A DNA stretch of 32,000 bases. Origin: an uncultured Clostridium sp. Lineage in GTDB: Bacteria > Bacillota > Clostridia > TANB77 > CAG-508. The stretch is taken from positions 3,597-35,596 of the forward strand of contig CAMSMU010000012.1 in the NCBI GenBank assembly GCA_947061115.1, read 5' to 3'. The notes under the pieces were generated by a model. It was not told where the DNA came from. It did no database searches and saw only the letters and a list, made by a program, of their open reading frames with translations. How positions within the stretch are numbered: position 1 is the stretch's first letter; each line of letters opens with the position of its first letter. Positions 18,438 through 27,537 of this stretch are shown in pieces. The position numbers were made by a program, and so were the translations under genes.

Positions 18438-18626
18438 TTACTCTTTATTTAATTCTTCTACTAATTCATTTACATCTATACCATGTATCATACATGCTTC
18501 TTCTAAAGTTTCTCCTTGTGAAGCTGGACATCCAATACAGTGCATTCCTATTTGTGTAAGTATTTCTACTTTATCTGGATCTTTTTCTAAAATTTCTCCT
18601 ATTTTTGTATCTTTACTAAACTTCAT
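18438..18626 (-). CDS. DUF1858-type small redox/disulfide protein (hybrid-cluster-protein-associated family)
   Basis: 62 aa with the pattern TKIGEILEKDP....IL...GMHCIGCPASQGETLEEAC..HGID, and an AAGGAGGA SD. Confidence 0.65.
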   Translation of the reverse strand: MKFSKDTKIGEILEKDPDKVEILTQIGMHCIGCPASQGETLEEACMIHGIDVNELVEELNKE

Positions 18627-18769
18627 AATATCCTCCTTAAAACTATTATTCTCGTTTATTTTAGTTTTATAAAATAATATTTATAATATTTTATCACTTT
18701 TTTTCAAAAAAGTATAGACAAAAGTAAAATTATGTTATATACTTCCATTTATTGGAAGGAGTGTTTTAT

Positions 18770-18922
18770 ATTTTAACATTATTAGATATATTTTTTATTA
18801 GCTTTATTCTTAACATTTTAATTATTTTTTACAGTTTATATACATTTATTCAATTTAATATATTTAAATCTAGTCAGGGTTTCAAATTAAATTTAAAATT
18901 AAGAAAGGAGAATAAAAATTAA
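18770..18922 (+). CDS. Small hydrophobic membrane protein opening the T4SS-like plus-strand arm (start uncertain: ATT 18770, GTG 18761 or TTG 18752)
   Basis: The frame is open from 18728 to TAA 18920-18922. The GGAAGGAG SD at 18754-18761 sits 8 nt before ATT 18770. The product ILTLLDIFFISFILNILIIFYSLYTFIQFNIFKSSQGFKLNLKLRKENKN has one or two TM segments. It is too short for the ORF track. Confidence 0.4.
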   Translation: MLTLLDIFFISFILNILIIFYSLYTFIQFNIFKSSQGFKLNLKLRKENKN

Positions 18923-20600
18923 TTTTTTATTTGTATGCATTTTTACTTTTTTCATTTTAATATTTTCTATTATTATTTTTAAACCTATTCTATTTAATTC
19001 AATATTAAATCTTTATAGTAACTTAAAAATATTTAATTTTATATTAGATGATATTAATTTATGGCATAATTTTAAGATATTATATTATATTTCACTTTTT
19101 TTATCATCAATTATTATTGGTAATTTTATATCGTTAAAATTATTTTCTAAAATTCATTTCATTAAAAAACAAGAACAAATTGATTTAAACTCTTTAAATT
19201 TATTAATAGGAAAAAAAGAAAATGGTAATTTAGTATATATACCTGAAAAAAGTTTATACCAAAATATACTTATAACTGGAGGGATTGGAAGCGGAAAGAC
19301 TTCCTCTGCAATGTATCCTTTTACCAAACAACTTATAAACTATATGTGTAATGATAATTCTAAGAAATTAAGTTTTCTTATATTAGATGTTAAAGGAAAT
19401 TATTATTCTATGGTCAAAAATTTTGCAATAGAGAGTAATAGATTAAATGATGTAATAGTAATTGAGCTTAATGGTAAATACACATATAATCCACTTGATA
19501 AGCCTGCTATAAAGTCTTCTGTTTTAGCTAATAGATTAAAAACTATATTATTATTATTTTCCCCAAATAATTCTGAGTCTTATTGGCTTGATAAAGCAGA
19601 ACAAGTTATAGAAAACTGTATTACTTTTTGTAGATTATATAATAACTACTATGTTACTTTTGAGGAATTACATAAGCTTGTTACAGACAAATCTTATTAT
19701 ACAAGTAAAATGCATGATGTTAGAAAAACATTTTTATCTGGTAAATTAAAAGAAAATGAAATATATGATCTATTATCTTGTATTAATTTTTTAGAAAATG
19801 ATTATTTTTCACTTGATGAAAGAACTTATAATATATTAAAATCTGAAATAACTAGAATAACAAATTGCTTTGTGTCTGATTATGAAGTTCTTAATACATT
19901 TTGTCCTAATAAATATAAAGAAAACTTTTTTGGATTTCAAGATTCAATTAAAACAGGTAAAATAGTGGTTTTAAATCTTAATATTGGAAAATATAAAAAT
20001 TTATCTAAAATTATTGCAGCATATTTAAAATTAGATTTTCAAACAGATGTAATATCTCAATTATCAAACAAAGTAATGAGAACTACTTGTTTTATTTCAG
20101 ATGAGTATCAGGAATATGTTACTTCTTCTGATGCTGAATTTTTTGCTCAAAGTAGAGAAGCAAAATGCATTAATATAGTAACTACTCAAAGTTATACTTC
20201 CCTTTTACATACATTAAATAATCAATATTCAGTTAAAGTAATTATTCAAAATCTTGTTAATAAATTGTGGTTTAGAACAGATGATATATTTACTATTGAA
20301 GATGCACAAAAGCAAATTGGAAAAGAAGATAAAGAAAAATTTTCTCGCTCTATTTCTGAGAACTCAAAAGAAAATAACTATAATTATCTGATGAAAAATT
20401 TTTCATCATTAGACTCTACTTTATCAGAAAGCATAAATACATATTCTCAATTTGATTTTTCTTATGACTATAATTTTTTTACACAAAGTCTTGAGACTTT
20501 TTCTTGTCTTGCCTTTTTATCTGATGGCAATAAAATTATAAAACCAGATAAAATTAAAATGATGCCATATTTCAAAGGAGGTTTAAATGAAAAAACGTAA
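18918..20600 (+). CDS. VirD4/TraG-like type IV coupling protein (T4CP) with N-terminal TM segments; probable ATT start
   Basis: The frame is open from 18903. Walker A ILITGGIGSGKTSS is encoded at about 19269-19307, upstream of the first canonical start (ATG 19311) used by the ORF track. Three hydrophobic segments precede it. Walker B-like CFISDEYQEY. The AAAGGAG SD at 18904-18910 sits 7 nt before ATT 18918. Confidence 0.7.
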   Translation: MNFLFVCIFTFFILIFSIIIFKPILFNSILNLYSNLKIFNFILDDINLWHNFKILYYISLFLSSIIIGNFISLKLFSKIHFIKKQEQIDLNSLNLLIGKKENGNLVYIPEKSLYQNILITGGIGSGKTSSAMYPFTKQLINYMCNDNSKKLSFLILDVKGNYYSMVKNFAIESNRLNDVIVIELNGKYTYNPLDKPAIKSSVLANRLKTILLLFSPNNSESYWLDKAEQVIENCITFCRLYNNYYVTFEELHKLVTDKSYYTSKMHDVRKTFLSGKLKENEIYDLLSCINFLENDYFSLDERTYNILKSEITRITNCFVSDYEVLNTFCPNKYKENFFGFQDSIKTGKIVVLNLNIGKYKNLSKIIAAYLKLDFQTDVISQLSNKVMRTTCFISDEYQEYVTSSDAEFFAQSREAKCINIVTTQSYTSLLHTLNNQYSVKVIIQNLVNKLWFRTDDIFTIEDAQKQIGKEDKEKFSRSISENSKENNYNYLMKNFSSLDSTLSESINTYSQFDFSYDYNFFTQSLETFSCLAFLSDGNKIIKPDKIKMMPYFKGGLNEKT

Positions 20601-26814: not shown

Positions 26815-27537
26815 TTAATTTATAAGCTTTTTAGCCAATTCTGTTTCTTCTTTTGTTAATTCAAAATTACCACCTTTATTTTTTATTAATATATGTAAAT
26901 TCTCTATATTTCTAGCATTTTTTATAGTATTTTCTAATGGTATTATATTTTTAATTTCCTTTTTCAATTTTTTATATTGTTTCTCCATATCACTAAAATC
27001 TTTATTGTTATAACTTTCTTTCCAATTTTGCATATATTTATCAATTTTTTCTACAGATGTAATTTGTTTATTAAACTCATTTTCTATATTATTACTTATA
27101 GTATTTAATATGGTATTTTTTCCATTTTTTAATATTGTTATAATTGAATTTGGAATTTTACCTATTTTTGAACTCATATTTAAGCCATAATCTAATGCTT
27201 TTGATATGCCATCAATAATTCCTCCATTCTTACAAGCATTTCTTGCCTGTGTAACATTATCGAATTTTCCTGTAAATATGCCTATTGTACTTTTACCTAA
27301 TTCTATTGCTGATGATATTGCTTCCTTGACACCTGCCTGAAAGCCATTATTAATTATCTCATCTTTTATATTTATTACTTGATCCTCTATTAAATCAGGA
27401 AGTAATGCTCTAATTCCCACATTTAGTGCAGTATTTACTACTTTTCCTAAACTACTTTCTAAAAAATTTTTTTGATTTGATAAATTTATATTAGAATTAA
27501 TATCCATATTATTATTTAAATTAGCTGTTAATTCCAT
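26815..27537 (-). CDS. Hypothetical 240-aa protein, overlapping the end of the ParA-like gene by 17 nt
   Basis: Clean ORF whose ATG overlaps the upstream gene's end. The Asn-rich N-terminus is followed by predicted helical repeats (FLESSLGKVVNTALNVGIRALLPDLIEDQ..., GGIIDGISKALDYGLN). I recognise no family. Confidence 0.55.
   Translation of the reverse strand: MELTANLNNNMDINSNINLSNQKNFLESSLGKVVNTALNVGIRALLPDLIEDQVINIKDEIINNGFQAGVKEAISSAIELGKSTIGIFTGKFDNVTQARNACKNGGIIDGISKALDYGLNMSSKIGKIPNSIITILKNGKNTILNTISNNIENEFNKQITSVEKIDKYMQNWKESYNNKDFSDMEKQYKKLKKEIKNIIPLENTIKNARNIENLHILIKNKGGNFELTKEETELAKKLIN

What the first reader, a model, noticed from the sequence alone, without database searches (positions are those of the whole stretch)
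18754..18920. Recurrent non-canonical (ATT/ATA) initiation after strong SD sites in the T4SS-like genes
Three or four genes in this cluster have essential N-terminal sequence upstream of any ATG/GTG/TTG.

1. T4CP: the frame is open from 18903, and all 136 codons up to ATG 19311 lack ATG/GTG/TTG/CTG. Yet they encode three TM segments and the Walker A GGIGSGKT. AAAGGAG is followed by 7 nt and then ATT 18918.
2. TadZ-like gene: 189 codons including the receiver-like domain and Walker A (28208-28231) precede the first ATG (28180). GGAGG is followed by 8 nt and then ATA 28747. Alternatively ATT 28753, overlapping the VirB4 TAA, is used.
3. VirB4 C-part: GAGGTG is followed by 5 nt and then ATT 30500.
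4. Small ORF: GGAAGGAG is followed by 8 nt and then ATT 18770.

Standard gene callers and the supplied ORF track truncate or miss these genes. A cluster-wide use of weak start codons would imply deliberately low or coupled translation.
Basis: seen in the sequence. Interest (0 to 1): 0.6.

Follow-up and report, generated by a model that had tools for sequence, protein, structure and literature searches.

The report
Secretion-machine genes starting at ATT/ATA
Four genes of a chromosomal type IV secretion-like machine in an uncultured, very AT-rich gut Clostridia bacterium, including all three of its ATPases, almost certainly begin at the weak start codons ATT or ATA behind a strong ribosome-binding site, so gene finders truncate them; this is a known kind of start site.

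Summary
The interpretation, real ATT/ATA initiation, is strongly supported by comparison with relatives.

- **Codon exchange.** In each of the four genes (small ORF, T4CP, VirB4 C-part, TadZ-like), the codon 6-9 nt behind a conserved strong or extended Shine-Dalgarno (SD) motif alternates between ATG, ATT and ATA across species.
- **No alternative start.** In many species no in-frame ATG/GTG/TTG exists ahead of the essential N-terminal sequence.
- **Derived state.** The TadZ-like gene has ATG at that codon in 9/9 genomes of sister families and ATA/ATT in 18/19 members of this genus.
- **Positive control.** infC in the same order uses the same layout (AGGAGGTG, 7 nt, ATA).
- **Not cluster-only.** About 10 of 1238 ORFs in this genome look alike. 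One of them, a short DprA paralog, shows the same ATG/ATA exchange. The cluster is enriched: 4 of about 10 genes, including all three ATPases.
- **Annotation.** The public gene call for the T4CP is the truncated 429-aa form.
- **VirB4 split.** The split into two genes is conserved across the order. The in-frame TAA is a coincidence of this genome.

This is a new set of members of a known kind (infC; pcnB; S. aureus cvfC1, ccpN, citZ). The scan found the same thing before on other genomes of this lineage (e1-3764038, e1-1091455).

The parts
18715..18743 (+). Promoter-like site of the plus-arm operon (TAGACA, 17 nt, TATACT)
   Evidence: Best consensus match in 18600-19000, 10 of 12. The block aaaaaagtatagaca...tgttatata is conserved upstream of the small ORF in orthologs. 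It is a consensus match only.
18754..18763 (+). Shine-Dalgarno site of the small ORF (GGAAGGAGTG)
   Evidence: TGGAAGGAGTG is conserved in 22 orthologous loci whatever frame it falls in.
18770..18922 (+). Small membrane-protein ORF (50 aa) starting at ATT 18770 and ending at TAA 18920-18922
   Evidence: At the homologous codon, two codons before the conserved T-L-L-D-L-F-F, the count is ATT 14, ATA 1, ATG 7. L002 has no ATG/GTG/TTG anywhere in the ORF.
18902..18910 (+). Shine-Dalgarno site of the T4CP gene (AGAAAGGAG), inside the end of the small ORF
   Evidence: A run of 9 nt is complementary to the assumed Firmicute 16S 3' end.
18918..20600 (+). Type IV coupling protein (VirD4/TraG-like, 560 aa) starting at ATT 18918
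   Evidence: Pfam TrwB_AAD_bind scores 36.8 bits against a cut-off of 20.5, from residue 108, which lies before the first ATG. Of 79 species, 27 have no in-frame canonical codon before TM1, 23 are ambiguous and 29 are canonical. The public call is truncated to 429 aa.
30516..31064 (-). VirB4 N-part gene (separate cistron) with a canonical ATG start (31064, or 31085) and TAA at 30518-30516
   Evidence: In 23 relatives the upstream gene is not in frame with the C-part. No family passed its curated Pfam cut-off. The 'VirB4 N-part' label rests on position only.
30504..30511 (-). Extended Shine-Dalgarno site of the VirB4 C-part (GAGGTGAT)
   Evidence: It is conserved as a nucleotide motif in three different frames across genus members, and in L042 it contains the in-frame stop.
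28749..30500 (-). VirB4 ATPase gene (C-part, 583 aa) starting at ATT 30500
   Evidence: Pfam P-loop_TraG 66.2 bits and AAA_10 52.7 bits. At the homologous codon 18 of 21 genus loci have ATT/ATA and 3 have ATG (L043, L046, L050). L042, L051 and L052 have their first canonical codon at 126-142.
28755..28761 (-). Shine-Dalgarno site of the TadZ-like gene (AGGAGGT), inside the end of the VirB4 gene
   Evidence: TAGGAGGT is conserved in the genus.
27521..28747 (-). TadZ/CpaE-like ATPase (receiver-like domain plus ParA/MinD ATPase, 408 aa) starting at ATA 28747
   Evidence: Pfam CbiA scores 30.5 bits against a cut-off of 25.4. At the homologous codon 18 of 19 genus loci have ATA/ATT, and 8 of 19 have no nearby canonical codon. 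Sister families have ATG at that codon in 9 of 9.

Best explanation
The four genes are intact and are translated from AUU (small ORF, T4CP, VirB4 ATPase) or AUA (TadZ-like ATPase).

Mechanism (inferred). A long SD helix, 7-9 nt complementary to the 16S 3' end, docks the 30S subunit. This places the near-cognate codon, 6-9 nt downstream, in the P site. Initiator fMet-tRNA then reads it with a third-position mismatch, so the protein starts with Met, not Ile. This is the mechanism known for infC, pcnB and the S. aureus genes cvfC1, ccpN and citZ.

Expected consequence, from those systems and not shown here: output of a few per cent to about 30% of an AUG start, and sensitivity to IF3 level.

Translational coupling. 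Three of the four starts lie 0-15 nt from the stop codon of the upstream cistron. Ribosomes finishing the upstream gene probably feed these weak starts.

Evolution. The state is derived. Sister families have ATG at the same codon, and this very AT-rich genus has replaced it with ATA/ATT many times while keeping or lengthening the SD. The habit occurs at about 1% of genes in this genome but is concentrated on the secretion machine's three ATPases.
For: - **ATG/ATT/ATA exchange at the homologous codon behind a conserved SD.**
  - Small ORF: ATT 14, ATA 1, ATG 7.
  - VirB4-C: ATH in 18 of 21 genus loci, ATG in 3.
  - TadZ-like: ATH in 18 of 19 genus loci, ATG in 9 of 9 from other families.
  - T4CP: 27 forced ATH, 23 ambiguous and 29 canonical among 79 species.
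- **Forced cases.** In L042 the stop lies inside the SD, followed by TAC ACT ATA, and the next canonical codon is at 126. In L136 the sequence is ...ggaggataa CCA ATA AAA.
- **The SD is a nucleotide motif, not coding.** It is conserved whatever frame it falls in. The in-frame GTG/ATG of some species sit inside it or 0-2 nt behind it.
- **Forced-ATH orthologs have longer SDs.** Median run is 8 nt against 6 nt, Mann-Whitney p = 6e-5, with the caveat that kin are not independent.
- **Regions before the first canonical codon are coding.** They hold Walker A, TM segments and Pfam domains. They match orthologs from residue 1-5. pN is below pS.
- **Positive control.** infC in 20 relatives starts at ATA (ATT in one, ATC in one) behind an SD motif, AGGAGGTG plus 7 nt in most of the genus.
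- **Experimental precedent in Firmicutes.** AUA/AUU starts behind extended SDs gave about 10-30% of AUG output (PMC13009471).
Against: - There is no direct evidence of initiation. No ribosome profiling, N-terminal proteomics or reporter data exist for this uncultured lineage.
- The 16S 3' end is not in this MAG, so the anti-SD sequence is assumed to be the usual Firmicute one.
- In about a third to a half of species an in-frame GTG or ATG lies within or just behind the SD and cannot be formally excluded as their start.
- ATT and ATA are also the commonest Ile codons (3.2% and 7.3% of codons), so a conserved Ile at that position would look the same. Only the species with no alternative start, and the exchange with ATG, separate the two readings.
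- Synonymous sites are near saturation, so the dN/dS values for the N-terminal part are noisy (0.13-0.62).
Confidence: 0.85

Rival explanations
1. The ATT/ATA codons are used only by ribosomes that have just terminated on the upstream cistron (termination-reinitiation or 70S scanning), and not by free 30S subunits. The genes would then be strictly coupled, and the SD would only hold the ribosome in place.
For: ATT 18918 overlaps the small ORF's TAA by one base. ATA 28747 starts 1 nt after the VirB4 TAA. ATT 30500 lies 15 nt after the TAA of the N-part. The ATTAG/ATTAA overlap recurs in several T4CP orthologs.
Against: The small ORF is the first gene behind a promoter-like site, has no upstream cistron, and still uses SD plus ATT. 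infC does the same. In orthologs the position of the upstream stop relative to the ATH codon varies while SD plus ATH stays fixed. This is a variant of the main explanation and not an exclusive rival.
Confidence: 0.2
2. The genes start only at the first canonical codons (ATG 19311, ATG 28180, ATG 30395), as gene callers say. The upstream open frames would then be untranslated remnants.
For: The public gene call for the T4CP is the 429-aa form. ORF lists built on ATG/GTG/TTG give these starts.
Against: Those products would lack both TM segments and Walker A (T4CP), or the receiver-like domain and Walker A (TadZ-like). The upstream frames stay open and alignable from residue 1-5 in dozens of species. 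The downstream ATGs have no SD.
Confidence: 0.04
3. The genes are fused to the upstream ORFs by programmed frameshifting or stop-codon read-through (small ORF with T4CP, VirB4-C with TadZ-like, VirB4-N with VirB4-C through the in-frame TAA), so no start codon is needed.
For: The cistrons overlap or abut. VirB4-N and VirB4-C are in the same frame in this genome.
Against: None of the junctions has a CGG or a slippery site. The N-part and C-part are in different frames in the 23 other genomes checked. The distance and frame between upstream stop and ATH vary among orthologs. The SD-to-ATH spacing fits initiation and not a prfB-type shift, which needs the SD 3 nt before the shift site.
Confidence: 0.04
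4. The cluster is a recently inactivated remnant whose start codons decayed under AT mutation pressure, or the codons are assembly errors.
For: The genome is 26% GC, and ATG to ATA is the expected direction of mutation.
Against: Frames of 560, 583 and 408 codons without a stop persist in 21% GC DNA. The same state occurs in independent MAGs from many studies and hosts. The cluster is present in 21-24 of 24 genus genomes depending on the gene, and in the sister families where searched. pN is below pS.
Confidence: 0.03

Closest known systems
AUA/AUU start codons behind extended Shine-Dalgarno motifs in Staphylococcus aureus and Bacillus subtilis (infC AUA, cvfC1 AUU, ccpN AUA, citZ AUA; PMC13009471)
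   Same: A Firmicute setting. A long SD helix lies close to a near-cognate AUA/AUU. The layout is conserved among relatives. Gene callers miss the start. In S. aureus the measured output was about 10% of AUG, and up to 30% for ccpN.
   Different: There, four scattered regulatory or metabolic genes were mapped experimentally. Here, four genes of one secretion-machine locus, including all its ATPases, are inferred only by comparison. The codon flips between ATG, ATA and ATT among species instead of being fixed.
E. coli infC (AUU, IF3 autoregulation) and pcnB (AUU, expression limited by the start codon; Binns and Masters 2002, as cited in PMC13009471)
   Same: A weak start codon that IF3 discriminates against and that sets low or IF3-dependent expression. 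infC of this order has the same layout as the cluster genes.
   Different: No feedback logic is evident for the secretion genes. In E. coli, non-canonical codons gave 0.01-2% of AUG (abstract of 10.1101/063800), which is probably lower than in Firmicutes with extended SDs.
The same T4SS-like locus in other genomes of this gut Clostridia lineage, noted earlier in this scan (e1-3764038, e1-1091455)
   Same: Secretion-motor genes start at ATA/ATT behind strong SDs, and are read as a brake on the level of motor proteins.
   Different: Those are unchecked AI notes on other genomes. This report adds the ATG state in sister families, the small ORF as a fourth case, the infC and DprA controls, and a genome-wide rate.

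Membership tests
SD-led non-canonical (AUU/AUA) bacterial start sites (infC / pcnB / S. aureus cvfC1-ccpN type) | No in-frame ATG/GTG/TTG upstream of indispensable N-terminal sequence | tested here: met
   The first canonical codon is at 136 (T4CP), 193 (TadZ-like) and 40 (VirB4-C). Walker A, TM segments and domains lie before it.
SD-led non-canonical (AUU/AUA) bacterial start sites (infC / pcnB / S. aureus cvfC1-ccpN type) | Strong or extended SD 5-10 nt upstream of the near-cognate codon | tested here: met
   SD runs of 7-9 nt with spacings of 7-8 nt from the GGAG/GAGG core. The anti-SD is assumed, because the 16S gene is not in the MAG.
SD-led non-canonical (AUU/AUA) bacterial start sites (infC / pcnB / S. 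aureus cvfC1-ccpN type) | Conservation of the site among relatives, with ATG at the homologous codon in some | tested here: met
SD-led non-canonical (AUU/AUA) bacterial start sites (infC / pcnB / S. aureus cvfC1-ccpN type) | Direct evidence of initiation (ribosome profiling peak, N-terminal peptide, reporter) and reduced, IF3-sensitive efficiency | not testable with these tools
   The lineage is uncultured and no such data are held.
Type IV coupling protein (VirD4/TraG/TrwB) | N-terminal TM segments, Walker A P-loop and the TrwB-type nucleotide-binding domain | tested here: met
   PF10412 scores 36.8 bits against a cut-off of 20.5. GGIGSGKT is present. Two TM segments are found by hydropathy. 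PF12696 scores 19.8, below its cut-off of 22.
VirB4 ATPase | VirB4/TraG-type P-loop ATPase domain | tested here: met
   PF19044 scores 66.2 bits and PF12846 scores 52.7 bits, both above their cut-offs. The N-terminal domain is a separate cistron here and in all relatives searched.
TadZ/CpaE-like ATPase | Receiver-like N-domain followed by a ParA/MinD-type ATPase | tested here: inconclusive
   CbiA/ParA-type PF01656 scores 30.5 bits against a cut-off of 25.4, so that part is met. Response_reg scores only 17.3 bits against a cut-off of 30.2.
prfB-type programmed +1 frameshift | Slippery codon plus in-frame stop with an SD 3 nt upstream of the shift site, conserved among orthologs | tested here: not met
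   There is no slippery codon. The SD lies 6-8 nt upstream. The frame relation between the cistrons varies among orthologs.

The most novel reading that the evidence does not exclude
The weak starts are not mere drift. The three ATPases and the leading small membrane protein would form a translational regulon read out through IF3 or ppGpp. The secretion machine would then be assembled only in particular growth states.

This would be made possible by lineage-wide relaxed start-codon proofreading. One possible cause is the loss or truncation of the 16S m5C967 methyltransferase RsmB, which I saw in this genus.
Probability: 0.15. Interest if true: 0.6.

Novelty: new member of a known kind. Interest (0 to 1): 0.4.

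Why it matters
Annotation. ATG/GTG/TTG-only gene callers cut the Walker A and membrane anchor off the coupling protein. They also cut the receiver-like domain and Walker A off the TadZ-like ATPase. The window's own T4CP is recorded at 429 aa, and many database homologs of the 560-aa T4CP are recorded at 430-524 aa. Surveys would therefore score this widespread gut-Clostridia secretion machine as degenerate or incomplete.

Biology. All the motor proteins of a conserved chromosomal T4SS-like machine carry start codons expected to give a small fraction of AUG output, and three of them abut the upstream cistron. That would give a built-in low and coupled stoichiometry that could be tested in reporters.

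Evolution. The data give a clean natural series of ATG to ATA/ATT replacement with longer SDs in a very AT-rich genus. This is useful for models of start-codon selection.

Tried and rejected
- **infC and initiator tRNA in this MAG.** Neither was found; the MAG is 76% complete. The only tRNA(CAT) has G1-U72 and lacks the three G-C pairs in the anticodon stem, so it is not the initiator. I used infC of relatives instead.
- **16S 3' end.** It is not in the assembly.
- **Orthologs of two further genome-wide candidates.** The PP-loop protein on C24 and the ABC membrane domain on C58 had no match in relatives at the thresholds used (E <= 1e-20 and 1e-40). They remain unconfirmed.
- **T4CP N-termini of sister families.** They are too diverged for a reliable alignment of the start (E-values 0.001-1).
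- **dN/dS of the N-terminal part.** pN is below pS, but synonymous sites are near saturation and the script failed on distant pairs. I use this only qualitatively.
- **L18 and a C32 gene.** They first looked like ATA/ATT starts but have an ATG 12-13 nt behind the SD, so they are not counted.
- **Loss of RsmB or RsmD as a cause of relaxed fidelity.** RsmD is present everywhere. Full-length RsmB is missing from the genus but also from family f3, which keeps ATG at the TadZ-like start. The link is weak and is kept only as a lead.
- **A terminator-like hairpin at 18742-18758.** Its 5' arm probably lies upstream of the transcription start.

Full report
**Setting.** The window is contig C12 (3597-35596) of a 1.29-Mb MAG with 75 contigs, 76% completeness and 26% GC. 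Record titles of the closest T4CP loci are uncultured gut Clostridia MAGs and 'Clostridium sp. CAG:793' and 'CAG:571'. From my own knowledge, and from an earlier unchecked note (e1-3814920), this is the order TANB77. I did not verify that.

The finding lies in a T4SS-like locus with two arms.
- Plus arm: small ORF, T4CP, pilin-like gene, VirB6-like gene, PrgI-like gene.
- Minus arm: pilin/tail-collar protein, VirB4 N-part, VirB4 ATPase, TadZ-like ATPase, a 240-aa protein.

Pfam supports the T4CP, VirB4 and ParA-type assignments. The T4CP gave a match in 21 of 24, the TadZ-like gene in 20 of 24 and the VirB4 ATPase in 24 of 24 genus genomes searched. Sister families have them too. This is a resident machine and not a stray mobile element.

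**Observation.**
- T4CP: the frame is open from 18903. No ATG, GTG, TTG or CTG occurs in the 136 codons before ATG 19311. AGAAAGGAG at 18902-18910 is followed by 7 nt and ATT 18918, which overlaps the small ORF's TAA by one base.
- TadZ-like: the first canonical codon is codon 193 (ATG 28180). GGAGG at 28760-28756 is followed by 8 nt and ATA 28747.
- VirB4 C-part: TAA at 30518-30516, GAGGTGAT at 30511-30504, ATT at 30500.
- Small ORF: AAGGAG at 18756-18761, 8 nt, ATT at 18770.

Two small corrections apply. Hydropathy shows two clear TM segments in the T4CP, not three. ATT 28753 lies only 2 nt behind GGAGG and is not a credible start.

**Comparative test, T4CP.** In 12 genus loci the match begins at residue 1-5 of the ATT-initiated protein. 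Five loci have no in-frame canonical codon near the N-terminus. In the others a GTG or ATG sits inside the SD or 0-2 nt behind it, as in GAGGTGATG.

Among 79 species-level representatives from public genomes:
- 27 have no in-frame canonical codon at all before TM1;
- 23 have one, but with no usable SD, while an ATH codon sits behind a strong SD;
- 29 have a properly spaced ATG, TTG or GTG.

Examples at the homologous place are 'ggaggataa CCA ATA AAA AGG ATT' against 'AGGAGCATT ATG AAA AAA AGA'. Forced-ATH orthologs have longer SD runs (median 8 nt against 6 nt, Mann-Whitney p = 6e-5). Relatives are not independent, so this is indicative only.

**Comparative test, TadZ-like gene.** In 19 genus loci the codon 8 nt behind TAGGAGGT is ATA or ATT in 18. 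Eight of the 19 have their first canonical codon at positions 20-246. In nine genomes of four sister families the same codon is ATG: 'ATG AAR AAR ATT ... ACN GCA' against our 'ATA AGA AGA ATA TTA ACA GCA'. This fixes the position as the start codon and shows that ATH is the derived state.

**Comparative test, VirB4 ATPase.** All relatives have a separate open frame of 583-627 aa where the frame is intact, so the N/C split is ancestral in the order. Only in our genome are the two parts in the same frame, so the 'in-frame TAA' is a coincidence. Behind (A)GAGGTGAT, 18 of 21 genus loci have ATT or ATA and 3 have ATG at the homologous codon. In L042 the in-frame stop lies inside the SD and is followed by TAC ACT ATA, with the next canonical codon at 126. 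L051 and L052 are similar. The SD keeps its sequence in three different frames, so it is a nucleotide signal and not coding. Sister families use an ordinary SD plus ATG further upstream.

**Comparative test, small ORF.** Two codons before the conserved T-L-L-D-L-F-F, and 6-8 nt behind TGGAAGGAGTG, the codon is ATT in 14 loci, ATA in 1 and ATG in 7. One ortholog has no canonical codon anywhere in the ORF.

**Controls and scope.**
- infC of 20 relatives starts at ATA (ATT in one, ATC in one) behind an SD motif (AGGAGGTG, 7 nt, ATA in most of the genus). This is the classical IF3-autoregulated layout and has the same architecture as the cluster genes.
- The other cluster genes have ordinary SD plus ATG or TTG starts.
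- Genome-wide, 1238 ORFs of at least 80 codons cover 87% of the MAG. At strong SDs the starts are ATG 546, TTG 37 and GTG 32. About 10 ORFs have an orphan strong SD plus ATH at their 5' end, three of them in this cluster.
- Sites with ATH and no canonical codon exceed the chance expectation by about 10 (35 of 102 observed, about 25 expected).
- One non-cluster candidate, a short DprA paralog, shows the same exchange: ATG in 7 and ATA in 7 genus members.

The habit is therefore lineage-wide at roughly 1% of genes. That compares with four mapped sites in S. aureus, which I estimate at about 0.15% of its genes. It is heavily concentrated on this locus: 4 of about 10 genes, including all three ATPases.

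**Mechanism.**
- *Shown:* intact frames, conserved SDs, the right spacing, and ATG/ATH exchange.
- *Inferred from established knowledge and PMC13009471:* the extended SD helix positions AUU or AUA in the P site. fMet-tRNA reads it with a third-base mismatch. IF3 disfavours it. Output is a minor fraction of an AUG start. Reported values are about 10-30% in S. aureus reporters, 0.01-2% for non-canonical codons in E. coli (10.1101/063800) and 5-7.5% in an older E. coli case (PMC5499595).
- *Coupling:* three starts abut the upstream stop (overlap of 1 nt, gap of 1 nt, gap of 15 nt), so coupling to upstream translation is likely. The promoter-proximal small ORF and infC show that coupling is not required.
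- *Selection or drift:* whether the weak starts are selected, for low motor-protein stoichiometry or IF3/ppGpp-dependent control, or are near-neutral products of AT pressure buffered by long SDs, cannot be decided here. The frequent flips between ATG, ATA and ATT fit drift. The concentration on the three ATPases fits selection.

**Rivals.**
- Truncated products would lack Walker A and the membrane anchor.
- Fusion by frameshift or read-through is contradicted by the variable frame and distance relations in orthologs and by the absence of CGG or slippery sites.
- Pseudogenisation or assembly error is contradicted by long stop-free frames in 21% GC DNA, shared by independent MAGs from several hosts.

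**Annotation consequence.** The public protein collection holds the window's T4CP as a 429-aa protein starting at ATG 19311. It also holds many homologs of 430-524 aa next to full-length forms of 557-574 aa.

**Novelty.** The kind is known. The new items are the gene set, the genus-wide conservation, the ATG ancestry and the rate. The scan noted the same phenomenon before on other genomes of this lineage (e1-3764038, e1-1091455). My tests were made independently on this window and its relatives, and they agree.

Noticed in passing
window 30516-30518 and 28749-31151 (minus strand); loci L033-L056: The VirB4 N-part and ATPase part are separate cistrons in all 24 loci examined (open frames 583-627 aa where intact). 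Only in this genome are they in the same frame, so the 'in-frame TAA' is a coincidence and not a nonsense mutation or a read-through site.
   Followed up: yes
G000 contigs C7:28465-29622, C8:7777-8988, C13:22445-23404, C24:6886-7566: The frames of EF-Tu, Obg and two FtsZ-like genes begin in mid-protein, for example '...GHVDHGKTT' for EF-Tu. Essential genes therefore look frameshifted in this MAG. CGG is 0.01% of codons.
   Followed up: no
relatives G001-G018: Full-length RsmB (16S m5C967 methyltransferase with a NusB-like N-domain) is found in families f2, f4 and f5. In this genus only a 304-334 aa methyltransferase-only form, or no match, is found. RsmD is present throughout. In E. coli, loss of these P-site methylations is reported to relax initiation fidelity (my own knowledge). 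The link to ATH starts is weak, because family f3 also lacks RsmB yet keeps ATG.
   Followed up: partly
window 18742-18758 and orthologous loci: A conserved inverted repeat (TTCCA-N5-7-TGGAA, or CCAAATATTGG in several species) lies between the -10 box and the small ORF's SD, and its 3' arm overlaps GGAAGGAG. It could be an operator, or a 5'-terminal mRNA hairpin that masks part of the SD.
   Followed up: no
G000:C8:29946-30581; loci L163-L180: A short (about 211 aa) DprA-like paralog, present beside a paralog with a 286-codon open frame, starts at ATA behind GAAAGGAG here and in six other genus members, and at ATG in seven.
   Followed up: yes
G000: C10:19315-20295(-), C24:1726-2469(-), C58:682-1665(+), C7:16131-17096(-), C3:42813-43850(-): These are further candidate ATA/ATT starts behind strong SDs. 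They are a lipoprotein-like 'MKKLLKK...' protein, a PP-loop (SGGKDS) protein, an ABC exporter membrane domain and two paralogous membrane proteins. Two of them had no ortholog match in the relatives searched, so all remain unconfirmed.
   Followed up: partly
loci L137-L156: infC starts at ATA (ATT in one, ATC in one) behind an SD motif in all 20 genomes of the order examined (AGGAGGTG plus 7 nt in most of the genus). IF3 autoregulation of the usual type is therefore probably intact.
   Followed up: yes
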